Positions 1 to 13,299 are shown, numbered from the stretch's first letter. The stretch: 64,000 nt of DNA from Gemmatimonadota bacterium (GCA_022820995.1 JAJEEM010000061.1:12582-76581), one strand, 5' to 3'. The notes: generated by a model not told the origin, from the letters alone. Numbers and translations: made by a program.

Positions 1-1
1 G

Positions 2-1939
2 GCGGCGATCCGCGGAACGCGACGGATCAAGGTGCCGCTGACCTTCGCCGTCCTCACGTCGGTGGCCGCCTTCATGCCGCTCCTGTTCATCCCCGGGGGC
101 GTCGGCGAGACCTGGTCCGCATTGCCGGTGATCGTCATCGCCATGCTGATGGTGTCGCTGGTCGAATCGCTGTTTGTTCTGCCCAATCACCTCTCCCATC
201 TGCCCGGACCGGAGTGGGTGCCGACGAGCGCCCCCGACCGGTTCTTCGCCCGGGTCCAGAGTCGCGTGGACCGCGTGCTGAAGCGGTTCGTGCGGGGCCC
301 GCTGGATCACGCTCTGCGCTTCGCGACGCGCGAGCCCGGCATCACGGTGGCGGGAGCGGTCTGCCTGCTCGTGTTGTGCATCTCCCTGCTGCCGGCAGGC
401 ATCGTCCCGACCACCTTCGCCGGCGTCGTCGAGGGGGACTTCGCCACGGCCACTCTGGAAATGCCGGATGGGACGACCGCGCAGCGAACGTACGAAGTAA
501 CGCAGGAACTGGAAGCGGCCGGGCACAGGGTCATCGAGCGTCTCTCGGCCGACCGGCCCGAGGATGCGCCTCCGCTGCTGTCGGGGGTCACCGTCATGGT
601 GGGCCAGCGGCCGCGGATTCAGGGCGGAGGGCTGAACCCCGCGCCGACCCTCAATCCGGAAGCCAATGTCGCCACCGTCGAGTTCAAGCTTCTCGGGGCG
701 CAGCAGCGACAGGTCTCCACCGGAGAGGTCGCGCAGGCGTGGCGCGAGGAAGTGGGCGTGCTGCCCTACGTCCGCAGCCTCACCTTCACCGCCGAGATCA
801 TCGATTTCGGCAACCCCGTCGAGGCCGTGCTGTCCCACCCGGACCCGGAGCGCCTCATCGGGATCGCGGACTCCGTCGTCGTCGGTCTCCGCCGCGTGGG
901 CGGCGTCTTCGACATACGCTCCGATCACACTCCGGGCGTCCCGGAGGTTCAGCTCGAGTTGCGGCCGGGAGCGCGCACCCTCGGTCTCACGCTGGAGGAT
1001 CTGGCCGGGCAGGCGCGGGCCGCGTTCTTCGGCGCGGAGGCCATGCGGATCCAGCGCGGCCGGGAGGAGGTTCGGGTCTACGTGCGCCTGCCGTCCGATG
1101 AACGGGAGTCCGTCACGGATATCGAAGGATATCTGCTCCGGACGCCGAGCGGCGGCGAGGTTCCCCTGACCACCGTGGCCTCGCTGAACTCGGGAACTTC
1201 GCCCCCCGCAATCCGGCGGAGGGATGGCCAGCGCGTCGTCACGGTGAGCGCGGATGTGGACCCCGTGGTGATTTCCGGCGGGGAGGCCAATGACATTCTC
1301 GTCAATTCGATCCTCGCGGACCTCACCGCCGCGGACCCGGACCTGACGTACACGCTCGGCGGCGAGCAGCAGCAGCAGGTCGAGTCCCTGGACTCGCTCT
1401 ATCGCGGGTTTGCGATCGCCATGCTCCTCATCTTCGCGCTCCTGGCCATTCCCCTGCCTTCCTGGACCAAACCGTTCATCATCATGGCCGTCATCCCGTT
1501 CGGGTTCATCGGCCTGATCCTCGGTCACCTGATTCTGGGGATCGCCGTGAGCGCGCAGTCCTTCATGGGTTTCTTCGGTCTCAGCGGCGTGGTCGTGAAC
1601 GATTCCCTGGTCATGATCGATCTCATCGACAGGAAACTCAGGGACGGCATGCCCGCGCGGGCCGCGATCATCGAGGGCGCGAAGGGGCGGTTTCGCCCGA
1701 TCATGCTCACGTCCGTGACGACCTTTCTCGGTTTCACGCCCCTCATTCTCGAGCGCGCGATTCAAGCGCAGTTCCTCGTGCCCTTTGCCGCGTCCCTCGG
1801 TTTCGGCATCCTGATCACTACGGCTCTGCTGATGATGATCGTGCCGGCGCTTTCCACGATTCATCTGCGGCTGATCTCGTCGCGCCGAAGTTCCGGCGTC
1901 CGCGAGATACCGGGCGAGCCGACTTCAGTCGGCGTCTGA
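2..1939 (+). CDS. RND (AcrB/CzcA-type) efflux transporter permease, C-terminal portion; the gene continues upstream of the window
   Basis: Open frame from base 2 with no upstream stop. Multi-TM hydrophobic segments and the conserved C-terminal RND block 'GFIGLILGHLILGIAVSAQSFMGFFGLSGVVVNDSLVMIDLID' are typical of AcrB/CzcA family TM10-12. Confidence 0.8.
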   Translation, partial: AAIRGTRRIKVPLTFAVLTSVAAFMPLLFIPGGVGETWSALPVIVIAMLMVSLVESLFVLPNHLSHLPGPEWVPTSAPDRFFARVQSRVDRVLKRFVRGPLDHALRFATREPGITVAGAVCLLVLCISLLPAGIVPTTFAGVVEGDFATATLEMPDGTTAQRTYEVTQELEAAGHRVIERLSADRPEDAPPLLSGVTVMVGQRPRIQGGGLNPAPTLNPEANVATVEFKLLGAQQRQVSTGEVAQAWREEVGVLPYVRSLTFTAEIIDFGNPVEAVLSHPDPERLIGIADSVVVGLRRVGGVFDIRSDHTPGVPEVQLELRPGARTLGLTLEDLAGQARAAFFGAEAMRIQRGREEVRVYVRLPSDERESVTDIEGYLLRTPSGGEVPLTTVASLNSGTSPPAIRRRDGQRVVTVSADVDPVVISGGEANDILVNSILADLTAADPDLTYTLGGEQQQQVESLDSLYRGFAIAMLLIFALLAIPLPSWTKPFIIMAVIPFGFIGLILGHLILGIAVSAQSFMGFFGLSGVVVNDSLVMIDLIDRKLRDGMPARAAIIEGAKGRFRPIMLTSVTTFLGFTPLILERAIQAQFLVPFAASLGFGILITTALLMMIVPALSTIHLRLISSRRSSGVREIPGEPTSVGV

Positions 1940-2991
1940 CCGGGGTTCGGCGGTCGTCGACGCCGAATTCGGATAGAACTGCCGGCAGTATCGGCGGTAC
2001 TTCCCGATGGGGCCGTCGGTCCGGCTCAGGCGGGGCGGGGTCCGGTAGCGCTTCCTGTCCCAGATGATGACGTCCTGCAGGACGAACCGCCTTTCCTCCC
2101 GGATGAAGAACATGTTCAGCAGCCGGTGGCGCAGCGGCACGGGCAGGAACGCCAGGCCCGCAATGAACCGGCCCGGTTTGCGGATCTCCCGCACCTGACT
2201 GACCAGCGTCAGCTCCACCGACTCACCGTCGACAGGCGTCGAAAGCACCCAGAGACGCGCACGCATGCCGACGGTCTTCTCGTGGATTTCGACGAAGGAA
2301 TAGCCGAGTCCGTGGACGTGCGTGATGGCGGAGACGTCGGAGTGGACGTCCGCCAGGCCCGCGATTCGGCGAACCATCTTGAAGTCGAAGCAGCTCTTCA
2401 GATAGGCGCCGTCGGTGAAAAAATCGGTCGGCTCCACATCGTGGTACCCGTGCGTGTATTCGAGGTGTTCCACGTCCACGGAGTTTTCCGTCGTCTCCTG
2501 GGGGTGACCCCGGAACCGCAGGGTAGTGGATCGCAGTTCGGTCCACTCCGCGCCGGCGGGCGGCTCATCCGGCAGGCGCCACTGCGGCGCCCGCCCGCCG
2601 CTCCCCCGCCACGCGAAGATCATGCCGAGGATCTCGCGCGTCTCGTAGAGCTTGAGTCTCGCGGCCTTCGGGGGCGGGGCATTGGGCGTGGCCACGCACC
2701 GGCCGGCGGTGTCGAACTCGAACCCGTGGAAGGGACAGACGAGGCAGCCGTCGCGCACCACGCCGCCGACCGATGGCCCCATGTGCGATCCAAGGTGCGG
2801 ACAGAACGCGTCCGCCACGCAGATCCGGCCATCGTCGTCGGCCCAGGCAACAATCTCCTCGCCCAGCCAGGTCTTCTCCATCAGCCCTTCCCGCACGACC
2901 GTTTTCCGGTTCGCGACGAAATACCACCCCTCGGGAAAGGCCGGCAGCGTACCCCTGTATGTCGAGGTTCGATTGCTTCTGGTCGTCATGA
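1925..2991 (-). CDS. Rieske [2Fe-2S] domain non-heme iron oxygenase (PAO/KshA-like)
   Basis: Rieske motif 'CPHLGSH...17 aa...CPFHGFEF' (CxH...CxxH) followed by a catalytic domain. Start chosen at MTTRSNR (2991); the upstream part of the ORF is low-complexity. Confidence 0.75.
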
Positions 2992-3065
2992 GGCGAACTT
3001 CGCTACCGTGACGCTGGCGAGTCAACCAGGATTCGTTGCACCGATCCGAGACGCCCGGAGGGACG

Positions 3066-5672
3066 ATGACTCTCGAAAGTGCCGCGCGCGCCGCGCCCTT
3101 TGCACTCTTCGTCGCGCTGGCGGCGGGCCTGCCGGCGAACGGTTCCGGCCAGACCGCGGGCGGGGTGCCGCGCTTCGAGATCGCGTCCTCGCCGATCGAA
3201 CTCGAGGGACCCGTGCGTCCCGGCGAGTACCTCGGCGTGACGGGGCCCCGTTCCGCGTGGCTCGGCCTCGAGACGGGCGAGGCGGAACTGTGGGTCCATC
3301 CCCTCAAGGTGGGGAACCGGTTCCGGCTCGGCTTCTCGACGCCGGCCTACGGGACGCCGATTCCGGGAGACGAAGTCGCGCGCACCGTGCGGGTGCGGCC
3401 CGAACTCACGACGATCACCTACAGCCACGCCGCCTTCCAGGTGCGCCAGCACATCCTCGCCCCGGCCGGACTCCCCGGCCTTCTGCTCCTCCTCGACGTG
3501 GACATTCCGGAACCGCTCGAGATCATCGCGGAGTTCGAACCCGTGCTGAACTTCATGTGGCCGGGTTCGATCGGCGGACAGTACGCGTACTGGGACGCCG
3601 ACCGGCGCGTATTCGTGCTCTCCGAGAGTCTGCAGGAGACGAACGCCGTCGTCGGGTCTCCGTGGGCCGTGAACTCGGTGGAACACCCGGCTCATCAGCT
3701 CGGCGAGGCGCCCCGGACCATGGTGATCCCGGTCGACCCGGAGCGCGCGCGGCGGGAGTTCATCCCGATCGCGGTGGCGGGCGGGACCGCGCCCCGCGAG
3801 GAGGTTTTCGACAGCTACGAACGGCTGATCGCCGAGGCGCGCGCCCTCTACGACGCGAAGCGGGCGTGGGCCGACTCCGTACTCGCCTCCACCGTCTCCA
3901 TCGAATCGCCGGATCCGCGGCTCGATCTCGCCCTCGAGTGGGCGAAGATCAACCTGGAGGAGCAGCGGGTCTGCAACCCCGACCTCGGGTGCGGGTTCGT
4001 CGCGGGCTGGGGGCTTTCGCGAAACGGAACCCGCCCCGGGTTCGGCTGGTTCTTCGGCGGCGACGCGGCGCAGACCATGTTCGCCATGGACGCGCTCGGG
4101 CAGTGGGAACTGGTGGCGGAGGAACTCGCCTTTCTCGCCGGATATCAGCGAGATGACGGCAAGATCACGCACGAAATCTCTCAGGCGGCCGCGCGTATCC
4201 CGTGGTTCGACGTGTACCCGTACGCCTACTACCACGCCGACACCACGCCCTACTGGATGGTCGCCCTCTACGAGTACTGGCGGGCGAGCGGCGACGACGA
4301 CCTGCTGCGGGAGCTGTGGCCGGCGTACCGCCGCGCCTGGGCGTGGTGCCTGACCGCGGAGACGGACGGGGACGGGATCATCGAGAACACCGTGGGCGGG
4401 CTCGCGGCGGTCGAGGTCGGCGGCCTCGGTGCCGCGCTCCACCAGGATGTCTACCTGGCGGGGATCTGGGTCGCGGCCCTCGAGGGAACCCGTGTCCTGG
4501 CCGAACGCATGGGCGACGCGGAGATGGCGGATCGGGCGCGGGCGCTCGCTCCCCGCGCGCGGGCGACCTTGAATGACGCGTACTGGCTGGAGGACGCGGG
4601 ACACCACGCCTTCGGGATCCTCGCCGACGGCGGCACGAACGACAACCTGACGGTGTGGCCCGCCACGGCGGCGGCGTTCGGCCTGTTCGACGAGCCACGC
4701 GCGCTCTCGACGCTTGCCCACCTCGCGAGCGATCGGATCTCGTCGGACTGGGGCGCGCACATTCTCTCCACCGGGAGCGAACTGTATCACCCCCTCCAGT
4801 ACAACATGGGAACGGTGTGGCCCTTCGTGACGGGATACGTGTCGTGGGCCCAGTACCGGTATCGGCGTCCGTGGGCGGGTTTCCATCTCATTGACGCGGT
4901 GAAGCAGATGACCTTCGACTGGAGCCTGGGGAGACACCCGGAGCTGCTGTCGGGAACCTTCTACCAGCCCCTCGACCAGACCGTCCCGCACCAGTTCTTC
5001 GCGACCTCGGCCCTGGTGACACCGTTACTGCGCGGCGTCATCGGCTGGGAGCCCGACGCCCCCATGGGTCGGGCGCAGCTCGCGCCGCAGCTCCCGCCGG
5101 ACTGGCCGGCCGTGACGGTGAGACGGCTCCGAGCCGGGGAGACGACAACGGACGTGGAGATCCGGCAACGGTGGACGCCGGAGGGCGGGGAGCGACGGAC
5201 GACGCTCACGACCAGGGGGCCTGCGCTGACATTCGGCTTCGTGCCCGACGTGCCGGCAGGCGCGCGGGACGTGTCCATCAGCGTGAACGGGACCGTCACC
5301 GAACTCACCGGGGATGGAACGCTGGAGATGACGCTGGGTGAGACCGTCGCCGCGGGCGATCGCGCGGAAATCGTCGTGACGTGGGGCGCCGGACTCGCAA
5401 TCGCCCCGCCCCGGATCAACCTCGAGCCGGGGCAAGGCAGCAACGGCCTGCGCATCCTCGACTTCGACGCGGATCCCGATGGCTGGATTCTAAGCGTGGA
5501 GGGGCTGGCGGGCCGGAGCTACGAACTCGGCATCTTCGGCGCCACGGTCGAACCCGACGTCGTGGAAGGCGCCGCAACGAGTACGCTGGCCAACCCCGCG
5601 ACCGTACGCATCACGTTCTCCCCGGACACCGCGGAACGCACGATAGCCGTGGTTCGTTTCACGACCCCGTAG
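3066..5672 (+). CDS. Secreted (alpha/alpha)6-toroid glycoside hydrolase, amylo-alpha-1,6-glucosidase/GDE_C-like
   Basis: Signal-peptide-like N-terminus (MTLESAARAAPFALFVALAAG). Long acidic/aromatic central region (GWGLSRNG...FFGGDAAQTMFAMDALGQWE...YPYAYYHADTTPYWMVALYEYW) resembles the six-hairpin glycosidase fold of glycogen-debranching-type enzymes. The family assignment is tentative. Confidence 0.55.
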   Translation: MTLESAARAAPFALFVALAAGLPANGSGQTAGGVPRFEIASSPIELEGPVRPGEYLGVTGPRSAWLGLETGEAELWVHPLKVGNRFRLGFSTPAYGTPIPGDEVARTVRVRPELTTITYSHAAFQVRQHILAPAGLPGLLLLLDVDIPEPLEIIAEFEPVLNFMWPGSIGGQYAYWDADRRVFVLSESLQETNAVVGSPWAVNSVEHPAHQLGEAPRTMVIPVDPERARREFIPIAVAGGTAPREEVFDSYERLIAEARALYDAKRAWADSVLASTVSIESPDPRLDLALEWAKINLEEQRVCNPDLGCGFVAGWGLSRNGTRPGFGWFFGGDAAQTMFAMDALGQWELVAEELAFLAGYQRDDGKITHEISQAAARIPWFDVYPYAYYHADTTPYWMVALYEYWRASGDDDLLRELWPAYRRAWAWCLTAETDGDGIIENTVGGLAAVEVGGLGAALHQDVYLAGIWVAALEGTRVLAERMGDAEMADRARALAPRARATLNDAYWLEDAGHHAFGILADGGTNDNLTVWPATAAAFGLFDEPRALSTLAHLASDRISSDWGAHILSTGSELYHPLQYNMGTVWPFVTGYVSWAQYRYRRPWAGFHLIDAVKQMTFDWSLGRHPELLSGTFYQPLDQTVPHQFFATSALVTPLLRGVIGWEPDAPMGRAQLAPQLPPDWPAVTVRRLRAGETTTDVEIRQRWTPEGGERRTTLTTRGPALTFGFVPDVPAGARDVSISVNGTVTELTGDGTLEMTLGETVAAGDRAEIVVTWGAGLAIAPPRINLEPGQGSNGLRILDFDADPDGWILSVEGLAGRSYELGIFGATVEPDVVEGAATSTLANPATVRITFSPDTAERTIAVVRFTTP

Positions 5673-5938: not shown

Positions 5939-7093
5939 TCAGTCGGCCAGTACTTCCGTCAGCGCGTCGGCCACCTCGTCGATCTGCGCTTCGGTGATCA
6001 CAAGCGGTGGCAGCAGCCGGATGACCGTCGTGCCGGCCGGGAGGGCGAGGACGCCGCGCTCCGCGAGGGCTTCCAGATAGGGGCGGCAGCGCTCGCGGAG
6101 TTCCACGCCGATCATGAGGCCGACCTGCCGCACGGCGCGCACGCGGGCCGGCCGGTGTCGGTCGAAACGCTCGCCGAAGCGGGCGCCCCGCGCCTCGGCC
6201 CGCTCGTCGAGCCGCTCGTCCCGCATGAAGCGGATCGCGGCCAGGGCGGCGGCGCAGGCGAGCGGATTGCCGCCGAAGGTCGTGCCGTGCCGCCCGGGTG
6301 CCGGCTGCAGCCGTCGGTGCGCCAGGACCGCCCCCAGGGGCACGCCGCCAGCGATCGCTTTGGCGAGGCAGAGGACGTCCGGCACGACGCCGTAGCGATC
6401 GCAGGCGAACATGCGGCCGGCGCGGCAGAAGCCCGTCTGGATCTCGTCGAACACGAGGACCGCACCGGCCTCGTCGCAGATGCGGCGCGCCGCCGACAGA
6501 TAGTCCGGGCTGGCCGGCCGCACCCCGCCCTCGCCCTGCACCGGCTCGATGATCACCGCTGCCGTGTCCTCTCCCACGGCCGCGCGCAGCTTCTCGACGT
6601 GGTTGAAGGGCACGAACGAGAATCCCGGAACGAGCGGCTCGAACGGCTCCCGGTACTCCTTCTTGTGCGTCGCGCTCAGCGCTCCCAGCGTTCGCCCGTG
6701 GAAGCCGCGCATCGCGGACACGACCCCCGCCCGTCCCGTCGCGAGGCGCGCGAACTTGATCGCCGCCTCCACCGCCTCCGCCCCGGAATTGCAGAGGAAG
6801 GCGCGCGTGAGCCCCGCCGGCGCGACCGAGACGAGTTCGGCCAGCAGCCGCGCCCGGACATCGTTGTAGAAGATCCCTGGACACGACACCAGCACGCGAG
6901 CCTGTTCCGCCAACGCCTCGGCGACGGCCGGGTTGGCGTGTCCGATGCTCGCCACGCCGATGCCGCCCACGCAATCGATGTACCGGCGACCCTCGTCGTC
7001 CCACACGCACGCGCCCTCGCCCCGCACGATCGCAATGTCGCGCTTCGGGAACACTTCGAGCGCGTACTCCCGCTCCGTCTCGCGCGTGTTCAT
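5939..7093 (-). CDS. lysJ: Acetylornithine/LysW-gamma-L-lysine aminotransferase (class III PLP aminotransferase)
   Basis: Class-III aminotransferase hallmarks (GIASIGH, 'VFDEIQTGFCRAGRMFA', PLP lysine region 'LCLAKAIAGGVPLGA'). It overlaps the upstream lysZ/argB by 4 nt. Confidence 0.85.
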   Translation of the reverse strand: MNTRETEREYALEVFPKRDIAIVRGEGACVWDDEGRRYIDCVGGIGVASIGHANPAVAEALAEQARVLVSCPGIFYNDVRARLLAELVSVAPAGLTRAFLCNSGAEAVEAAIKFARLATGRAGVVSAMRGFHGRTLGALSATHKKEYREPFEPLVPGFSFVPFNHVEKLRAAVGEDTAAVIIEPVQGEGGVRPASPDYLSAARRICDEAGAVLVFDEIQTGFCRAGRMFACDRYGVVPDVLCLAKAIAGGVPLGAVLAHRRLQPAPGRHGTTFGGNPLACAAALAAIRFMRDERLDERAEARGARFGERFDRHRPARVRAVRQVGLMIGVELRERCRPYLEALAERGVLALPAGTTVIRLLPPLVITEAQIDEVADALTEVLAD

Positions 7094-7902
7094 CCGATGA
7101 CCGTGCCCCGTCCGGCCAGCGCCTCCGTGACCGGCCGTTCGACGCGCCCGTCCGCGATGACCACGCGCGTCGCGCCCGATTCCACGAGTCGCCGCAGGGC
7201 GAGCAGCTTCCGCTTCATGCGCCCGGTGACCTCGCCTTCCCGGCGGGCAAGCTCCCCGCGCTCGAGCCGTGCGACGACGGACGCCGGATCGTCGGGGTCC
7301 TCGAGGAAGCCGGGCGCCTCGATCAACTGGATCACGCAGTCCGCTCGCAATTCGTCGCTCAGCAGGGTCACGACGTCGTCGTTCTCCGAGTTGATCGCCA
7401 CGTTGCGTTCGTCGATGAGGGGCACGGTCACCACGGGTGTGAACCCGCCGTCGAGGAGCAGTCCCATCAGCTTGCGGTTCACTTCCACCGGCTTCCCGGA
7501 CAGGTCCCGCCTGATCAGCGTCTTGCCGCCCTCTCTCACCCGGATTCCCCGGTTGCGGCGGCCGCGCACGAGCGCGCCGTCGAGCCCGGTGAGCCCCACC
7601 GCGTTCACGCCCTGACCCTGCAGCAGTTCCACGATTCGCTTGTTGCGCAGGCCCGCGTAGGCCATGAGCATCACGTCGATCAGGTCGCGGTCGGAATGTA
7701 CGCTCTCGTGTCCGGAAACCGACGTGAGGATGCGCTTCTCGACCCCGAGCCTCCGGGCGAGGGAATCGCGCAGCGCGTTCGCCCCGTGCACGATGACGAA
7801 CGGACCGGGCAGGCCCCCCAGGTCGCGAGCGATCCCGTCAAGATTGATGGATTCCCCGCCGCCGATCTTGACGAGCGTCAACCCGCCGGATTCCCCAGGC
7901 AT
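7090..7902 (-). CDS. lysZ: Amino-acid kinase family: acetylglutamate kinase / [LysW]-aminoadipate kinase
   Basis: N-terminal 'LVKIGGG' nucleotide-binding motif and AAK-fold pattern (VIVHGANA...LTGLDG...). Sits inside the lysW cluster. Confidence 0.85.
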   Translation of the reverse strand: MPGESGGLTLVKIGGGESINLDGIARDLGGLPGPFVIVHGANALRDSLARRLGVEKRILTSVSGHESVHSDRDLIDVMLMAYAGLRNKRIVELLQGQGVNAVGLTGLDGALVRGRRNRGIRVREGGKTLIRRDLSGKPVEVNRKLMGLLLDGGFTPVVTVPLIDERNVAINSENDDVVTLLSDELRADCVIQLIEAPGFLEDPDDPASVVARLERGELARREGEVTGRMKRKLLALRRLVESGATRVVIADGRVERPVTEALAGRGTVIG

Positions 7903-7905
7903 CGG

Positions 7906-8553
7906 TCAGAACGTCCCGATGGCGCCGTTGGCCACGGGCGTCCACGTTCGCCGCCCGTCCGGATCCGGATACGGCGCCGAGCACAGGATCCCCACGCCGT
8001 CCCCGTGGGCGGCATGCATCCGGAAGTAGTCCGGGTCCTCGTTGAATCGGGTCGCGAAGTGGACCCGCCGCGACGCGTCGGCGACGATGAGATTCATCGC
8101 CCGCACGTAACGGGTGCGCTTCTCGATCGCAGCGAGTCCCCGCTCCAGCGCGCGACCCATGTCTCCGTCATCGAAGCGCTTGACGAAGTTGAACACCTTC
8201 TCCGCGCCGATCCGCCCCCGTTCCCTGATCCGCACACCGTGCAGCTCTCCGTTGAAGATGAACGCGCGTTCCCCGTCGAGGAACGGCATATTGTTCTCGA
8301 CCCGGATCCCCTCTCCGCGATACGCGCTCCTCGCATGGGCGAGCAGAAGCGTCGTGCGCCCGGACGGCGCCGCGGCGTCCTCCCAGACCGGCGAGATGTC
8401 GCGGTAGACGCGCCACCCGTCGGCATCGATCCACGCGCACCCCCACCCGTCGCCCTGGTACTCGGGACTCTCCCGGGCGAGTTGCGCGAAGGCGGTGAGG
8501 TGCGGCTCCATGTCGAAGGGCTCGTCGCTCCGGACGCAGAGGATGCGGCACAC
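7906..8553 (-). CDS. Class-II glutamine amidotransferase-like Ntn hydrolase (YafJ/EgtC-type), standalone
   Basis: Begins 'MCRIL' (N-terminal Cys nucleophile directly after Met) and is about 215 aa, typical of standalone GATase-2 domains. Located between lysY and lysZ. Confidence 0.6.
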   Translation of the reverse strand: MCRILCVRSDEPFDMEPHLTAFAQLARESPEYQGDGWGCAWIDADGWRVYRDISPVWEDAAAPSGRTTLLLAHARSAYRGEGIRVENNMPFLDGERAFIFNGELHGVRIRERGRIGAEKVFNFVKRFDDGDMGRALERGLAAIEKRTRYVRAMNLIVADASRRVHFATRFNEDPDYFRMHAAHGDGVGILCSAPYPDPDGRRTWTPVANGAIGTF

Positions 8554-8578: not shown

Positions 8579-9601
8579 TCAGGCCGGGTGCAGTCCGGGG
8601 AACTCGAGCCCCCGCGACTCCGGCAACCCCTGCATCACGTTGAACGCCTGCACCGCCTGTCCCGCCGCTCCCTTCATGAGGTTGTCGATCGCGCTCAGGA
8701 CCACGACCCGGTTCGAGAGCGGATCGCGCTCGAACCCCACGTCGCAGTAGTTCGCGCCCGCCAGCAGGTTGGGGTCGGGAAAGCGGTGGATGCCGCTCCG
8801 CTCCTTGACGATGCGCACGAACGGTTCGTCGGCGTACGCGCTCCGATAGATCTTCCACAGCGCCTTCTCATCGAGATCCCGGTTCAGGAACACGTGACAG
8901 GTGGCGAGGACGCCGCGCACCATTTCAACCGCCGTCGCGGAGAAATGCACGTCGCCGCCGAGCACAGCGGCGATCTCGGCCGCGTGGCGGTGGCCGGTCG
9001 GCCGATACGACCGCATGGCGCCGCTGCGCTCCGGGTGGTGGCTGCCCTCGCTGGCGCGGTTCCCGGCCTCGCTCGATCCCACCTTGACCTCGATCACGAC
9101 CGAGTCCGCGACGCCCTCCCGGTACAGCGGCAGGAGCCCGAGGATGGAGGCCGTCGCGTTGCAGCCCGCACAGGCGACGAAGTCCGCGCCGGCCAGCGCC
9201 TCGCGGTTCACTTCCGCGATCCCGTACACGAACGACTCCAGGAGTTCCGGCCGAGGGTGCGGCCGGCCGTAGAAGCGCTCGTAGTCCGCACCGTTCCGGA
9301 GCCGGAAGTCGGCTCCCAGGTCGACGATCCGCCCCGCCAGCGACCGAAATCCGTCGATGCGTCGGGACGACTCCCCGTGCGGGAGGCAGAGGAAGAGCAC
9401 GTCGCACTCGGACAGCTCCTCGAGCGCGCTGAAGCGCAGTCGCGTGACGCCGCGCAGGTTGGGATGGACCCGGTGCGCGAACCGTCCCGCGAAGCGCTCC
9501 GACGTGATCTGCCGCACCTCGACATCGGGATGTCCGAGCAGGAGCCGCAGCAACTCGCCGCCGGCGTATCCCGAGCCGCCCGCGATCGACGCGCGGATCA
9601 A
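8579..9601 (-). CDS. lysY: N-acetyl-gamma-glutamyl-phosphate reductase / [LysW]-aminoadipyl-phosphate reductase
   Basis: NAD(P)-binding '[16 protein letters not shown]' N-terminus and catalytic Cys motif region '[10 protein letters not shown]'. Overlaps lysX by 4 nt. Confidence 0.85.
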
Positions 9602-10446
9602 CGGACCGCCGCCCGATCCGGCGAGACGACGTAGGATACGATCCTCTCCGGAATGTTCACGCCCGTCGCCTCGATGCTGTTCCGGAACTCCATCGTGTAA
9701 TTCACCTCGTTGACCAGCAGTTCGCCGCCGCTCTCGAGCAGATCCACCGCGACCACGCCCCCGCCCATGGCGGCCGCCGCCCGCAGGGAAAGCTCCGCGA
9801 TCTCGCTCGTCACCGGAAAGTTCGAGGCCGTTCCGCCGCGGGCCGTGTTCGTGATCCAGTGCTCGGACGACCGGTAGATGGCCGCCACGCAGTCGTCGCC
9901 CACGACGAACGCGCGGATGTCGCGCCCGCCCTTCTCGACGTACTTCTGCACGAAGAAGATCGAGTGATGATAGCTGCCCAGGATCGCCTTGTGTTCGAGG
10001 ACCGTCTCCGCCGCGTGCCGGTCGTTGATCCTCGACAGCAGGCGGCCCCAGGAGCCGACCGCGGGCTTGAGGACCACGGGATAGCCGAGTTCCTCAATGG
10101 CCTCGAGCGCGGATTCCTCGGTGAACGCGACCCTGGCTTCGGGCTGCGGCACACCGCATTCCCGGAGCGACGCCGCGGTGAGGATCTTGTCGCCGCAGCG
10201 GCGCGACACCTCGTAGCGGTTCACGCAATCGAGGCCGGCCCCCTCGAAGAGCCGCAGCGCGTGCATCGCCCGCGAGTGGTTGATGGAGCGCTCGAGGACG
10301 ACATCCACATCCGGGACGCTGCGGAAGTCGAACACGAGCCTGCGGTCGTCCAGAAACACCAGTTCGACGTCGCTGCGCCGGCGCAATTCCGCGATCAGCA
10401 GCTTCTCGTCCTTGCGGATGAGGGAATGAAGAAAGCCGACTCTCAT
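9598..10446 (-). CDS. lysX: RimK-family ATP-grasp ligase (alpha-aminoadipate/glutamate--LysW ligase)
   Basis: ATP-grasp/RimK architecture ([21 protein letters not shown]...). The start ATG overlaps the lysW stop (ATGA). The track ORF extends further 5' in low-complexity sequence, so the start was trimmed to MRVGF. Confidence 0.8.
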
Positions 10447-10607
10447 TCGCCCCAGTCCTCCTCCGCGTCCGGCGCCTCCCCCAGGGTGATGGGGTCGAGC
10501 GCGAGAATCTCGAGTTCGACGCCGCACTCCTCACATTCGAGGAGCTCGCCCTCGACGGGATCGTCGGAAATCGCCAGTTCGGCGTCGCAAACAGGACATA
10601 CGGACAT
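10443..10607 (-). CDS. lysW: LysW amino-group carrier protein (zinc-ribbon, C-terminal EDWGE)
   Basis: Small ORF absent from the track: M(DGM)[53 protein letters not shown] with a CxxC...CxxC zinc ribbon and the diagnostic acidic C-terminus ending EDWGE. GGAGG sits 9 nt upstream of the second ATG (10607). An alternative start lies at 10616. Confidence 0.75.
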
Positions 10608-10660
10608 GCCATCCATCCTCCACTACGGGGTTCTTCGCAAGAGAAAGGGGTTACGTACCG

Positions 10661-11365
10661 TCAGTCGGCTGCAGAGTTCCGGAAGGGAAGCCGCAGCGCC
10701 AGGAAGAGCCCGATGGCCACAGGTTCGAGTAGCAGAATATACCAGGGCCAGTCCGGGAAGAAGTCCAGTATCGATGCCGCCGGCGGCTTGTCGATGAGAT
10801 ACAGGTAGTTGGACCCGAGCACGCGATTGAGCGGATACAGCGCGACGGCGTACACGTTCATCAGGCCGAGCGCCAGCCAGGGATCGCGCGCCTTCGGCCG
10901 GTAGTCCTCCACCGTCACCGCCCATACGCCCGCAATGACGGCGATTCCGTGCGACGCCATCGTCTCGTAGAAGGCGAAGTGGTGAATGCCGTGCGCTGCA
11001 TCGGGCGTCAGCACGGCCTGGATCGCCCCCCCGACGCCGAAGAAGTACATGAGCCGAAGAGCCCACAGGTGCCGCGTCCACAGCCCGTACACCGTCAACC
11101 AGGCCATCGCCGCGCACAGGTGCAGCGGGAGGTCGTTCTGAACGGTCCATAGCCCCGCCGAGGCTTTCCACGTGTGCCTGAGGCCGAGGAGGAGGAGGAT
11201 CGCGGCGCCCATGGCGAAGCGGAGTCGGCGCCGCCGGTCCTCGTCGCCGGCCATGCCCGCCCGGATCAGACAGACGCCGACCGCGGCCAGCACGCCCATC
11301 GTCACGAGATGGACCGGGCTGAAGAGATCCAGCGGTACCGACTCCGTCCCGAAGAATTGGCTCAC
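10661..11365 (-). CDS. Polytopic membrane protein (TIGR02206/YwaF-like intramembrane family)
   Basis: Hydrophobic, about 6-7 TM segments, aromatic-rich (LHLCAAMAWLTVYGLW...). GTG start (VSQFFGTE) overlaps the stop of the upstream nagB-like gene. The longer ORF in the track is R-rich artefact in its N-terminal two thirds. Confidence 0.5.
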   Translation of the reverse strand: MSQFFGTESVPLDLFSPVHLVTMGVLAAVGVCLIRAGMAGDEDRRRRLRFAMGAAILLLLGLRHTWKASAGLWTVQNDLPLHLCAAMAWLTVYGLWTRHLWALRLMYFFGVGGAIQAVLTPDAAHGIHHFAFYETMASHGIAVIAGVWAVTVEDYRPKARDPWLALGLMNVYAVALYPLNRVLGSNYLYLIDKPPAASILDFFPDWPWYILLLEPVAIGLFLALRLPFRNSAAD

Positions 11366-13299
11366 GCGTCCGGGTCCGCGAGGGACGAAGTCGGGATTTC
11401 GGGCCCCTCCACCCTGCGGCCCTCCCGCAGCGTCACGTACGCCTCCATGGCGTAATAGGCCGGCAGGCCCAGTGCGGCGAGCCGGTTGGCGGTATCCCGG
11501 TTTCGTTCGACGACGCGCTGCCAGAATTCGCGCGGATCCGGTCCCGGGAAGGGGGCCAGATCCTTCTGCGACTCGTGTCGGAAGATCGCCTGGACCTTGC
11601 CGCGCAGTTCGCCTTCGGAGAGCGGCACGAGGACCGTCGCTTCGTCCAGGCTCCACTCCTGCCAGGCGCCGCGGTAGAGCCAGAGCCACGGCGGGTCGCC
11701 GCGGTAGCGGGCGAGCGCCGCCTCCACCGTCTCGAGACACATGCGGTGCGTGCCGTGCGGATCGGACAGGTCCCCGGCGGCGAACACGATCGTCGGCCGC
11801 ACCTCCTCCAACAGCCGCGCGACGATCTCCACGTCCTCCGACGTGATCGGGTTCTTCTTCACCGCTCCCGTCTGATAGAACGGCTGGTTCAGAAAGCGGG
11901 CGCGGTCGGCGGAGAGCCCCAGCGATTCGATCGCGGCCGTGGCCTCGGTCTCGCGGATGATCCGCTTGAGTTGCTGAACCACGCCGGGATCGACGCCCCC
12001 CGGCTCCTTGCGGGCAAGCCGGCCTTCGAGAGACCGCAGCACCCCATCGAGGTCCGCCGCGTCGCCGAGGTCGATGACGCCGGCCGCGCGCCGCAGGAAG
12101 TCCAGGTGCCGGCGCACCTCGTGGTCGAAGACGGCGATGTTCCCGGACGTCTGATACGCCACGGTGACGTGGTTGCCGTTCTCGACGAGTTTGCGCAACA
12201 GTCCGCCCATCGAGATCACATCGTCGTCCGGGTGAGGCGAGAAGACGACGATGTTCTGGCCGCGCGGCAGCCGGCTCTTCCCCCGGATCTTGGAGATGAG
12301 CGCGTTGAACACCTGTCCGTTGAGCGGCTCGGCCGAACCGTGCCTGGACGTGAGCGGGGCGAGGTGGTTCGCGCGATAGTCGTCGGTCGCGAGGTGCAGG
12401 ATCGACTTGTCGGTGCGTTCGCTCAGCCAGATGACGGCCGCGGTCTCGCGCTCCGCCGTCCACTCCACGTCGCCCACGAGCCACGGCGTGCGGACGCGGG
12501 TGAGATCGGAAGCGGCGGCCGGGTCGAGATAGACCGTCGCGGCGGCGTGCTGCTGAAGAAAGGTCGCGGCGACGTCCGCGTGGACCTCCCCCTCGACCGC
12601 TCGACGCACGATCCCGGCCTTGTGTTCGCCGGTCGCGAGCAGGACGACTTCCCGCGCTTCGAGGATCGTGGCCACGCCCATCGTGATCGCCTGCGGCGGC
12701 ACGTTCTCCTCGCCGAAGAAATCGGCGGCGGCGTCGCTCCGCGTGACGGTGTCCAGGTAGAGCCGCCGGGTGCGCGAGTCGCGCTCGGACCCCGGCTCGT
12801 TGAAGCCGATGTGACCGCTGCGCCCGATCCCGAGAATCTGCAAATCGATCCCGCCCGCCTGCCGGATTCGGCGCTCGTACTCGACGCAGTGGGCCTCGAC
12901 GTCCGCTTCCGGCACATCGCCGCGAGGGCCGTGGCATTGCTCGGGAGCGATGTTCACATGGTCGAACAGGTGCTCCCGCATGTAGCGGTGATAGCTGTGG
13001 AGGCTGCCGGGCCGCATCGGGAAGTACTCGTCGAGGTTGAAGGCGACCGCGTTGGAGAAGTCGAGTCCCTCGTCCCGATGCAGGCGGATGAGTTCCCGAT
13101 ACACGCCGACGGGCGTGGCGCCGGTGGCGAGGCCGAGAACGGCGGGGCTCCCGTTCTCGGCCCTCTCCCGCAGTAGAGCCGCGATCCGGCCGGCGACTTC
13201 GGCGGCGATGCTGTCGTGGTCCGGCATGACCCGGACCGGCACACGTTCCCTCCGCGCGTGTGCGGCGACGCTCATCCGATCATCCGCCGATCGTGGCAC
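11362..13299 (-). CDS. Glucosamine-6-phosphate deaminase-like domain fused to LmbE/PIG-L-type N-acetylglucosaminyl deacetylase domain
   Basis: N-terminal NagB/6-phosphogluconolactonase fold (GLATGATPVGVY...ILGIGRSGHIGFNEPGS). C-terminal 'VVFSPHPDDDVISMGGLL...PHGTH' zinc-dependent LmbE motif. The exact start is uncertain. Confidence 0.75.
   Translation of the reverse strand: MPRSADDRMSVAAHARRERVPVRVMPDHDSIAAEVAGRIAALLRERAENGSPAVLGLATGATPVGVYRELIRLHRDEGLDFSNAVAFNLDEYFPMRPGSLHSYHRYMREHLFDHVNIAPEQCHGPRGDVPEADVEAHCVEYERRIRQAGGIDLQILGIGRSGHIGFNEPGSERDSRTRRLYLDTVTRSDAAADFFGEENVPPQAITMGVATILEAREVVLLATGEHKAGIVRRAVEGEVHADVAATFLQQHAAATVYLDPAAASDLTRVRTPWLVGDVEWTAERETAAVIWLSERTDKSILHLATDDYRANHLAPLTSRHGSAEPLNGQVFNALISKIRGKSRLPRGQNIVVFSPHPDDDVISMGGLLRKLVENGNHVTVAYQTSGNIAVFDHEVRRHLDFLRRAAGVIDLGDAADLDGVLRSLEGRLARKEPGGVDPGVVQQLKRIIRETEATAAIESLGLSADRARFLNQPFYQTGAVKKNPITSEDVEIVARLLEEVRPTIVFAAGDLSDPHGTHRMCLETVEAALARYRGDPPWLWLYRGAWQEWSLDEATVLVPLSEGELRGKVQAIFRHESQKDLAPFPGPDPREFWQRVVERNRDTANRLAALGLPAYYAMEAYVTLREGRRVEGPEIPTSSLADPDA

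What the first reader, a model, noticed from the sequence alone, without database searches (positions are those of the whole stretch)
7906..8553. Standalone class-II amidotransferase-like Ntn hydrolase embedded inside the lysW cluster - candidate non-canonical release enzyme
The ORF starts 'MCRIL' (a Cys1 nucleophile after Met removal), the hallmark of Ntn class-II GATase domains. It sits between lysY and lysZ, where no such gene is expected. Class-II GATase domains hydrolyse gamma-glutamyl amides. The LysW-product linkage is a gamma-glutamyl amide on the C-terminal Glu of LysW. Because no LysK is present, this enzyme could be an analogous LysW-unloading hydrolase. An alternative is an EgtC/YafJ-like unrelated amidohydrolase that happens to be inserted here.
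Basis: inference. Interest (0 to 1): 0.75.

Follow-up and report, generated by a model that had tools for sequence, protein, structure and literature searches.

The report
Ntn hydrolase standing in for LysK
A small cysteine-nucleophile hydrolase gene inside the LysW carrier-protein operon is very probably an unrecognised substitute for LysK, the enzyme that frees finished lysine or ornithine from its carrier, which would close an apparent pathway gap in at least three bacterial phyla.

Summary
Window 7906-8553 (minus strand, GTG start, the only possible start) encodes a 215-aa protein beginning MCRILCVR. It lies between lysY and lysZ in a tightly packed lysW-lysX-lysY-ORF-lysZ-lysJ operon.

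Every family member whose context I could see lies in a lysW cluster, in at least three gene orders. In one clade it is the last gene of complete aminoadipate-lysine operons.

Among 21 complete lysW clusters found with LysX as the seed, 10 end in this gene and 11 end in canonical M20 LysK. None has both and none has neither.

The family keeps Cys1, the Arg that binds the alpha-carboxylate, and the Asn-Gly oxyanion hole. The Asp that binds glutamine's free alpha-amine is an invariant Gly. That fits a gamma-glutamyl substrate whose alpha-amine is in peptide linkage, such as LysW's C-terminal Glu.

Best reading: a non-homologous LysK replacement. In this organism it probably releases ornithine.

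Caveat: M20 "ArgE"-annotated genes occur elsewhere in related genomes, and nothing has been tested biochemically.

The parts
7906..8553 (-). Standalone Cys1 Ntn hydrolase of the class-II amidotransferase fold (215 aa, GTG start, MCRILCVR...). Proposed LysW-gamma-ornithine/lysine hydrolase, a functional analogue of LysK.
10443..10616 (-). lysW: amino-group carrier protein with a zinc ribbon and a C-terminal ...AEEDWGE tail. Its terminal Glu gamma-carboxyl carries the pathway intermediates. Proposed macromolecular substrate of the hydrolase.
   Evidence: PF21344 55.9 bits; TIGR01206 56.6 bits against cutoff 53.2. Net charge -19, pI 4.05.
9598..10446 (-). lysX: ATP-grasp ligase that loads aminoadipate or glutamate onto LysW. 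The likely start is MRVGFLHS at 10446, in an ATGA overlap with the lysW stop; the longest ORF runs to 10527.
   Evidence: TIGR02144 LysX_arch 327.8 bits against cutoff 275.6; PF22626 and PF08443. ORF coordinates.
8579..9601 (-). lysY: LysW-aminoadipyl/glutamyl-phosphate reductase (ArgC homologue), directly upstream of the hydrolase gene.
   Evidence: TIGR01850 376.8 bits; PF22698 and PF01118.
7090..7902 (-). lysZ: LysW-aminoadipate/glutamate kinase (ArgB homologue). It starts 3 nt after the hydrolase stop codon.
   Evidence: NF010659 233.9 bits against cutoff 223; PF00696.
5939..7093 (-). lysJ: LysW-semialdehyde aminotransferase (ArgD homologue), last gene of the operon in this window.
   Evidence: PF00202 379 bits; TIGR00707 438.9 bits against cutoff 410; NF042418 LysJ 473 bits, below its 700 cutoff.

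Best explanation
The gene encodes a standalone N-terminal-cysteine (Ntn) amidohydrolase recruited from the EgtC/YafJ branch of class-II amidotransferase domains. It carries out the last step of LysW-mediated amino-acid synthesis in place of the M20 metallopeptidase LysK.

Proposed mechanism (inferred):
1. Removal of Met1 exposes Cys2 as the nucleophile.
2. The C-terminal Glu of LysW enters the former glutamine pocket. Its free alpha-carboxylate is held by Arg75.
3. The peptide chain of LysW leaves through the space opened by Gly116, which replaces the alpha-amine-binding Asp.
4. Cys attacks the gamma-glutamyl amide, stabilised by the Asn101-Gly102 oxyanion hole. The amino acid leaves as the amine.
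5. The resulting LysW-enzyme gamma-glutamyl thioester is hydrolysed, regenerating free LysW.

The chemistry is that of EgtC, which cleaves a gamma-glutamyl amide and releases the amine product. Here the glutamyl donor would be a carrier protein.

In this Gemmatimonadota (Palauibacter-like) genome the product is most likely ornithine for arginine synthesis. In a second, low-GC clade, whose operons also carry homocitrate synthase, homoaconitase and homoisocitrate dehydrogenase, the product is lysine.

Shown: fold, catalytic residues, linkage to lysW clusters, complementarity with LysK. Inferred: substrate, mechanism, product.
For: 1. Fold and catalytic apparatus.
- AF2 model pLDDT 87.
- hhalign against E. 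coli YafJ gives 98.6% probability over the full length.
- Cys2, Arg75 and Asn101 are invariant and Gly102 nearly invariant in 54 members down to 25% identity.

2. Active-site change in the predicted direction.
- Family motif G113-R-I-G116-A-E-K aligns with YafJ G-E-T-D-S-E-K and GlmS S-E-T-D123-T-E-V.
- The Asp that binds glutamine's free alpha-NH3+ (GlmS D123, PurF D127; my knowledge of Isupov 1996 and Kim 1996) is therefore an invariant Gly. The alpha-carboxylate Arg is retained.
- LysW's terminal Glu has exactly this pattern: free alpha-COO-, acylated alpha-N.

3. Dedicated family. Only 399 clusters at 50% identity reach E<=1e-3 among 1.84 billion representatives.

4. Linkage to lysW clusters.
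- 80 of 80 species genomes (Gemmatimonadota, Acidobacteriota, Gammaproteobacteria) have a lysW-pathway gene directly upstream of it. About 69 show the order W-X-Y-GAT-Z-J.
- Distant members: P0128 (41% identity) in W-X-Y-GAT-Z-J; P0198 (31%) as GAT-LysW; P0204 (30%) in LysW-like-HCS-X-Y-Z-J-GAT; P0240 (28%) as J-GAT; P0164 (35%) as Y-GAT.

5. Displacement pattern.
- Among LysX-seeded metagenome loci with complete clusters, 10 have GAT only and 11 have LysK only; 0 have both and 0 have neither (Fisher p 2.8e-6, not corrected for phylogeny).
- The M20 genes are true LysK (NF003367, 412 bits against cutoff 363).
- L100 reads W-X-Y-HCS-HacA-HacB-HICDH-Z-J-GAT, so the gene ends a complete aminoadipate-lysine operon.
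- The same ArgE and LysK queries that detect those LysK genes find nothing in the window or in 88 GAT-bearing loci.

6. Independent genome-wide hint. In a published KO table of 48 Gemmatimonadota genomes, K05826-K05830 are present in 17 genomes, but K05831 (LysK) has no row at all.
Against: - There is no biochemical test, and no model of the complex.
- Genome-wide absence of a LysK-type enzyme is not shown. In the same KO table, 16 of the 17 LysW-positive genomes carry 1-2 M20 genes annotated K01438 (acetylornithine deacetylase), although argB, argC and argJ are essentially absent. Such an enzyme, encoded elsewhere as lysK is in Thermus, could release the product.
- The complementarity statistic rests on few independent lineages: two GAT clades and a handful of LysK clades in a rough NJ tree.
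- The Asp-to-Gly assignment comes from profile alignments and secondary-structure position, not from superposed coordinates.
- Overall charge is not distinctive. Median family pI is 8.25, against 8.1 for YafJ, and the window protein's pI is 6.3.
Confidence: 0.65

Rival explanations
1. Accessory or editing hydrolase. The enzyme acts on LysW conjugates but does not catalyse the productive release step. It might strip mis-loaded or dead-end adducts (LysW-gamma-Glu, LysW-gamma-AAA, damaged intermediates) to recycle the carrier. The final release would be done by an M20 ArgE/LysK-like enzyme encoded elsewhere.
For: K01438-annotated M20 genes are present in 16 of the 17 LysW-positive genomes of the Palauibacterales study, although the N-acetyl arginine route (argB, argC, argJ) is essentially absent. 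In Thermus, lysK is also unlinked from the main cluster (established knowledge, Miyazaki 2002, cited). The active-site features fit any LysW-gamma-glutamyl amide, not only the final product.
Against: An accessory enzyme should co-occur with LysK at least sometimes. No locus has both: 0 of 21 complete LysX-seeded clusters and 0 of 89 GAT loci. Every complete cluster has one or the other. In clade A the gene sits after lysJ, where LysK sits in sister operons. K01438 is also present in 6 LysW-negative genomes, and its pattern tracks a clade with many extra genes.
Confidence: 0.17
2. Gamma-glutamyl transamidase. The LysW-enzyme thioester is resolved by the alpha-amine of a fresh aminoadipate or glutamate rather than by water. 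This would release product and reload LysW in one ATP-free step, as gamma-glutamyltranspeptidases do.
For: Ntn gamma-glutamyl acyl-enzyme chemistry allows aminolysis in principle (inference). The same linkage and active-site evidence applies as for the best explanation.
Against: lysX, the ATP-dependent loader, is directly upstream or nearby in nearly all GAT-bearing clusters where the upstream region is covered. No acceptor-site feature was identified.
Confidence: 0.06
3. Genuine glutaminase subunit. The protein hydrolyses free glutamine to supply ammonia or glutamate to the pathway, for example glutamate for LysJ or LysX.
For: It has the class-II GATase fold with Cys1, Arg and Asn-Gly, and passes the Pfam GATase_4 threshold. 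JGI names it 'predicted glutamine amidotransferase'.
Against: The Asp that binds glutamine's alpha-amine is an invariant Gly. There is no synthase domain or partner, and no step of the pathway consumes ammonia (established pathway knowledge). This reading does not explain the mutual exclusion with LysK.
Confidence: 0.04
4. Unrelated EgtC/YafJ-type amidohydrolase that happens to be inserted in the operon.
For: EgtC is the closest solved structure and the only NCBIfam hit.
Against: TIGR03442 scores 44 bits against a cutoff of 218.65, over 76 residues only. No egt gene was found among the ORFs scanned. The gene lies in lysW clusters in 80 of 80 genomes and in at least three gene orders down to 28% identity.
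Confidence: 0.02

Closest known systems
EgtC (ergothioneine-biosynthesis Ntn amidohydrolase, PDB 4ZFJ/4ZFK/4ZFL; TIGR03442)
   Different: About 20% identity. TIGR03442 scores 44 bits against a cutoff of 218.65. Different pathway context. The proposed glutamyl donor is the C-terminal residue of a protein rather than free gamma-Glu. The alpha-amine-binding Asp of the TD(S)E motif is an invariant Gly.
LysK, [LysW]-lysine/ornithine hydrolase (M20 metallopeptidase, ArgE/DapE family; NF003367, K05831)
   Same: Proposed to catalyse the same reaction: release of Lys or Orn from LysW-gamma-Lys/Orn. It occupies the same operon position after lysJ in sister clusters, and the two are mutually exclusive.
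   Different: No homology. LysK is a binuclear-metal M20 peptidase that acts by metal-activated water. This protein is a metal-independent Ntn cysteine hydrolase expected to pass through a covalent LysW-enzyme thioester.
YafJ / Pfam GATase_4 (PF13230) uncharacterised standalone class-II amidotransferase-like proteins (E. coli YafJ; PDB 3MDN, 1TE5)
   Different: YafJ keeps the ETDSE Asp; this family has G-x-I-G-A. The family is shorter (about 215 aa against about 255) and has a fixed lysW context.
Glutaminase domains of GlmS, PurF, AsnB and GltB (class-II / Ntn amidotransferases)
   Same: Fold, Cys1, the Arg73-equivalent and the Asn-Gly oxyanion hole.
   Different: No fused synthase domain or ammonia channel. 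The Asp123/127 equivalent is lost. The predicted leaving group is an amino acid rather than ammonia.

Membership tests
Class-II (Ntn) glutamine amidotransferase domain | N-terminal Cys nucleophile exposed after Met removal | tested here: met
   MCR is forced by the only available start codon. C2 is invariant in 54 diverse members.
Class-II (Ntn) glutamine amidotransferase domain | Four-layer alpha-beta-beta-alpha Ntn fold | tested here: met
Class-II (Ntn) glutamine amidotransferase domain | Arg binding the substrate alpha-carboxylate (GlmS/PurF Arg73) and an Asn-Gly oxyanion hole | tested here: met
   R75 and N101 invariant, G102 present in at least 90%. H-A-R-S-A aligns with GlmS H-T-R-W-A, and F-N-G with H-N-G.
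Class-II (Ntn) glutamine amidotransferase domain | Asp binding the free alpha-amino group of glutamine (GlmS Asp123, PurF Asp127, YafJ ETDSE) | tested here: not met
   The aligned position is Gly116, invariant in the family. The role of the Asp is from my knowledge of the literature, not verified here.
Class-II (Ntn) glutamine amidotransferase domain | Coupled synthase/acceptor domain receiving ammonia | tested here: not met
   Single-domain protein of 215 aa. No partner other than the LysW-pathway enzymes, none of which uses ammonia.
Pfam GATase_4 (PF13230) | Score at or above the gathering threshold (23 bits) | tested here: met
   28.8 bits, E 7.2e-7, residues 1-112 only. Most homologues carry no precomputed Pfam hit.
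EgtC (TIGR03442, ergothioneine biosynthesis) | Equivalog score at or above 218.65 bits | tested here: not met
   44 bits over residues 34-109. 30 bits for a clade-A member.
EgtC (TIGR03442, ergothioneine biosynthesis) | egtA/B/D/E gene neighbourhood | tested here: not met
   The neighbours are lysW, lysX, lysY, lysZ and lysJ in every locus examined.
LysK ([LysW]-lysine hydrolase, NF003367 / K05831) | M20 (ArgE/DapE) metallopeptidase homology | tested here: not met
   No M20 signal. The protein has an Ntn fold. It is proposed as a functional analogue, not a member.
LysK ([LysW]-lysine hydrolase, NF003367 / K05831) | Hydrolysis of LysW-gamma-Lys or LysW-gamma-Orn releasing the free amino acid | not testable with these tools
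   Inferred from operon position, mutual exclusion with LysK and active-site features.

The most novel reading that the evidence does not exclude
The family is the sole product-release enzyme of LysW/AmCP pathways in Gemmatimonadota, Acidobacteriota, some Gammaproteobacteria and (probably) Bacteroidota, and a low-GC lineage, and true LysK is absent genome-wide in these organisms. It works through a covalent carrier-protein-enzyme gamma-glutamyl thioester, making it the first Ntn hydrolase whose glutamyl donor is a protein C-terminus. It displaced the M20 LysK, or was displaced by it, at least twice, as suggested by two GAT clades with different operon positions separated by LysK clusters in the LysX tree.
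Probability: 0.5. Interest if true: 0.8.

Novelty: new variant of a known kind. Interest (0 to 1): 0.72.

Why it matters
LysW (AmCP)-mediated lysine and arginine synthesis is treated as a fixed six-protein system (W, X, Z, Y, J, K). KEGG-style reconstructions score it as incomplete when K05831 is missing.

If this family is the release enzyme, several things follow:
- A non-homologous, mechanistically different solution (a cysteine Ntn hydrolase instead of a metallopeptidase) exists for the last step.
- Putative lysine or arginine auxotrophies called for Gemmatimonadota and other MAG-only lineages may be annotation artefacts. Lysine is listed among the most common putative auxotrophies of Palauibacterales. 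This affects ideas about dependency in sponge and marine symbionts.
- Roughly 1,700 proteins now labelled 'hypothetical' or 'predicted glutamine amidotransferase' would gain a function.
- The EgtC/YafJ branch of Ntn hydrolases would gain a second assigned reaction and a clear specificity determinant (Asp to Gly) for protein-bound gamma-glutamyl substrates.
- It would give a clean case of in-situ non-orthologous gene displacement for work on pathway evolution.

The hypothesis can be tested directly with established LysW assays.

Tried and rejected
- **Complex modelling.** I built paired GAT-(GGGGS)6-LysW fusions from 20 loci.
- **afdb50 fold search.** The library was not available.
- **Charge complementarity with acidic LysW.** Not distinctive. 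Median family pI is 8.25 against 8.1 for YafJ, and the window protein's pI is 6.3. Only R3, R51, R75, R108 and K119 are conserved basic positions. Not used as evidence.
- **LysK in GAT-bearing genomes.** This says nothing about absence.
- **hhalign against a 130-residue GlmS fragment and the 240-residue GlmS domain.** Probabilities were very low for a single-sequence target. Only the local register around HxR, NG and TDTE was used, and only as corroboration of the strong YafJ alignment.
- **Possible fusion proteins.** P0160 is GAT(1-153) plus AA_kinase. It may be a GAT-LysZ fusion or a frameshift, and was not used as evidence.
- **Genes downstream of GAT in gammaproteobacterial loci lacking adjacent lysZ/J.** These are unrelated transporters and a GRDB-like protein.
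- **Literature.** Searches for LysW with amidotransferase, or amino-group carrier protein with Ntn hydrolase, gave nothing relevant. Searches for a citable statement of the Asp123 role also gave nothing.

Full report
**1. Observation**

The ORF at 7906-8553 lies on the minus strand and encodes 215 aa. The open frame reaches 8634, but it contains no ATG, GTG or TTG before the GTG at 8553. The product must therefore begin Met-Cys-Arg-Ile-Leu. Third-position GC is 0.87, like its neighbours.

The surrounding minus-strand genes are:
- lysW (10443-10616): zinc ribbon plus an EEDWGE tail.
- lysX (9598-10446).
- lysY (8579-9601).
- lysZ (7090-7902).
- lysJ (5939-7093).

Each is recognised by Pfam or NCBIfam. 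LysW, LysX, LysY and LysZ score above the curated cutoffs. Gene junctions are 4-nt overlaps or spacers of 3-25 nt, so this is a single operon.

Pfam GATase_4 is above its gathering score: 28.8 bits against 23, N-terminal half only. The only NCBIfam hit, EgtC, is far below its cutoff: 44 bits against 218.65.

**2. What the protein is**

The word-index search found 1,722 homologues. Where named, they are called 'hypothetical protein' or 'predicted glutamine amidotransferase'.

An exhaustive HMMER scan of 1.84 billion representatives found only 399 clusters at 50% identity with E<=1e-3, and 198 with E<=1e-10. The family is small and dedicated.

An AlphaFold2 model built from 24 sequences is confident: pLDDT 87, pTM 0.88. 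The exception is loop 108-113, which lies in a highly conserved basic stretch, GVRIxERGRIGAEK.

Structure searches agree on the fold.
- Foldseek puts EgtC first (E 2e-11, TM 0.7-0.77), followed by GlmS and PurF glutaminase domains.
- Profile-profile comparison with E. coli YafJ gives 98.6% probability over the whole length.

The protein is thus a standalone class-II-amidotransferase-type Ntn hydrolase of the EgtC/YafJ branch.

**3. Active site**

Across 54 members down to 25% identity, the invariant positions are C2, R3, W57, R75, P90, N101, G113, G116 and N154. Nearly invariant are Q33, G36-W37-G38, P55, H73-A74, F98, F100, G102, Y176 and S192.

The alignments give these equivalences:
- H73-A-R75 matches the H-x-R of GlmS and YafJ. 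This is the Arg that binds the alpha-carboxylate. Arg73 contacts with the ligand carboxylate are tabulated for PurF in PMC7953260.
- N101-G102 matches the oxyanion-hole Asn-Gly.
- G113-R-I-G116-A-E-K matches YafJ G-E-T-D-S-E-K and GlmS S-E-T-D123-T-E-V.

The Asp that binds the free alpha-ammonium of glutamine (my knowledge of the GlmS and PurF literature) is therefore an invariant glycine. In the model it sits directly before helix 117-125. From my recollection of the GlmS structure, Asp123 likewise precedes a helix.

The family keeps what is needed to attack a gamma-glutamyl amide and to hold a free alpha-carboxylate. It has lost the anchor for a free alpha-amine and placed the smallest residue there. 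The C-terminal Glu of LysW, whose gamma-carboxyl carries the pathway intermediates, has exactly that pattern: free alpha-carboxylate, alpha-nitrogen in a peptide bond.

**4. Linkage to lysW clusters**

A scan of one genome per species returned 516 relatives. I analysed the best 80. They come from Gemmatimonadota (Palauibacter, Longimicrobiales), Acidobacteriota (Vicinamibacteria, Marinacidobacterium) and Gammaproteobacteria MAGs.
- In all 80, a LysW-pathway gene lies directly upstream of the gene.
- About 69 show the full order W-X-Y-GAT-Z-J.
- In 8 gammaproteobacterial loci, lysZ and lysJ are elsewhere, but W-X-Y-GAT, X-GAT or Y-GAT adjacency remains.

Contexts of remote members were recovered by exact look-up:
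- P0128 (41% identity): W-X-Y-GAT-Z-J on a 38% GC contig that may be Bacteroidota, judged only from a neighbouring Por-secretion-tail protein.
- P0198 (31%): GAT followed by lysW.
- P0204 (30%): LysW-like, HCS, X, Y, Z, J, GAT.
- P0240 (28%): Z-J-GAT.
- P0164 (35%): Y-GAT.

The association therefore survives rearrangement and 70% sequence divergence.

**5. Complementarity with LysK**

To sample lysW clusters without selecting for the gene, I seeded a metagenome scan with a LysX alignment. Every locus was then classified with HMMs.

Among loci whose cluster is complete (LysX, LysJ and at least 1.3 kb downstream):
- 10 carry the Ntn gene only.
- 11 carry an M20 gene only.
- None carries both, and none carries neither (Fisher p 2.8e-6; not corrected for phylogeny).

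In most LysK-only loci (for example L124, L134, L166, L169) the M20 gene directly follows lysJ. In one it lies about 4 kb downstream (L165), and in L157 and L162 it follows lysX. These genes are bona fide LysK: NF003367 [LysW]-lysine hydrolase, 412 bits against a cutoff of 363 for L166.

In most of the Ntn-type loci the Ntn gene takes that same terminal position. L100 reads W-X-Y-homocitrate synthase-HacA-HacB-homoisocitrate dehydrogenase-Z-J-GAT. That is an almost complete 2-oxoglutarate-to-lysine operon whose last gene is the Ntn hydrolase.

The E. coli ArgE query detects those LysK genes at 1e-6 to 1e-13, and a 120-sequence LysK HMM detects them at up to 1e-177. Neither finds anything in the 64-kb window or in 88 other GAT-bearing loci, about 1.65 Mb in total.

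A rough LysX neighbour-joining tree shows two GAT clades separated by LysK clusters. Clade A is low-GC with GAT after lysJ. Clade B, which includes the window, has GAT between lysY and lysZ. This hints at more than one displacement event.

**6. Which amino acid is made here**

The window matches Candidatus Palauibacter (92% protein identity to complete MAGs). The supplementary KO table of the Palauibacterales paper (PMC10469786) covers 48 genomes.
- K05826-K05830 (LysW, X, Z, Y, J) are present. LysW is in 17 genomes.
- K05831 (LysK) has no row, and neither does K01655 (homocitrate synthase).
- argB and argJ each occur in a single genome, and argC in two.
- dapA occurs in one genome only.
- OTC, ArgG and LysA are present.

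The paper lists lysine among the most common putative auxotrophies. A related paper treats the system as the 'LysW-L-glutamate' route to ornithine in Gemmatimonadota. In this organism the cluster therefore most plausibly makes ornithine for arginine, and the hydrolase would release ornithine. In clade A it would release lysine.

**7. Main caveat**

The same table shows K01438 ('acetylornithine deacetylase', M20) at 1-2 copies in 16 of the 17 LysW-positive genomes. It is also present in 6 of the 31 LysW-negative ones. Without an N-acetyl pathway, such an enzyme might be a distal LysK-like hydrolase, much as Thermus keeps lysK away from its main cluster.

I could not retrieve these proteins or scan whole genomes. 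A LysK-profile search returned only LysK whose named hits are from Chloroflexota or Tectomicrobia among its top 120. The rival reading, 'accessory LysW-conjugate hydrolase plus a distal M20', therefore stays open at roughly 0.17. The lack of any operon carrying both genes argues against it.

**8. Comparison and novelty**

The protein works like EgtC: a Cys1 Ntn hydrolase cleaving a gamma-glutamyl amide to free the amine product. It is not EgtC. It would do the job of LysK without being related to it. As an amidotransferase it fails on two defining features, the alpha-amine Asp and a synthase partner.

Full-text searches found no paper linking LysW or AmCP systems to an amidotransferase-like or Ntn hydrolase. 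Public annotations are uninformative. I rate it a new functional variant of a known enzyme kind. Confidence in the release-enzyme reading is 0.65. Interest is 0.72, because it closes a recurrent 'missing LysK' gap and can be tested directly.

Noticed in passing
L087:362-532 (+); also the LysW ORFs of clade-A loci such as L100 and L093: In L087 the 56-aa ORF that opens the operon ends in ...VDEDWGE, like LysW. It has none of the four zinc-ribbon cysteines and gets no Pfam hit. It may be a zinc-free variant of the amino-group carrier protein. Other clade-A LysW proteins keep the CxxC...CxxC pattern.
   Followed up: partly
PMC10469786 supplementary file 10 (KO table), relevant to the window's organism: K01438 ('argE', M20) is present at 1-2 copies in 16 of 17 LysW-positive genomes, although argB, argC and argJ are essentially absent. 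K05831 (LysK) and K01655 (homocitrate synthase) have no rows. dapA is in one genome only, while lysA is common. Either these M20 enzymes have a non-ArgE role, or they act on LysW conjugates.
   Followed up: partly
P0160 (477 aa, from the representative search): Residues 1-153 match the Ntn hydrolase family and residues 215-401 match the AA_kinase family (LysZ-like). This is either a natural GAT-LysZ fusion or a frameshift/assembly artefact joining adjacent genes.
   Followed up: partly
L130, L132, L134, L162, L167 (LysK-type metagenome loci): These LysK-type loci carry two LysX paralogues a few kb apart. This resembles the LysX/ArgX pair of bifunctional archaeal systems. No second copy appeared in the GAT-type loci of the LysX-seeded set or in the tblastn survey of the 80 genome loci.
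   Followed up: no
window 1-3307 compared with L081:15337-20660: In the related complete MAG (L081), a methyltransferase with a sterol-methyltransferase C-terminal domain (CMAS/Sterol_MT_C) and a GPP34-P450 protein lie between the Rieske/KshA-like oxygenase and the RND transporter. In the window those two flanking genes abut (1925-3307 and 32-1939), so the pair is missing.
   Followed up: no
window 11362-13299 (-) and 10661-11360 (-): Upstream of lysW lie a fused glucosamine-6-phosphate-isomerase-like/PIG-L deacetylase protein (645 aa) and a TMEM164-family membrane protein (identified in L081). Both are conserved next to the cluster in the relative L081. No link to the pathway is evident.
   Followed up: no
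window 7906-8553, residues 106-119 of the protein: The only low-confidence stretch of the AF2 model (108-113) falls in one of the most conserved segments, GVRIxERGRIGAEK. It is probably a mobile lid that orders on substrate binding, and a candidate LysW-tail contact.
   Followed up: partly
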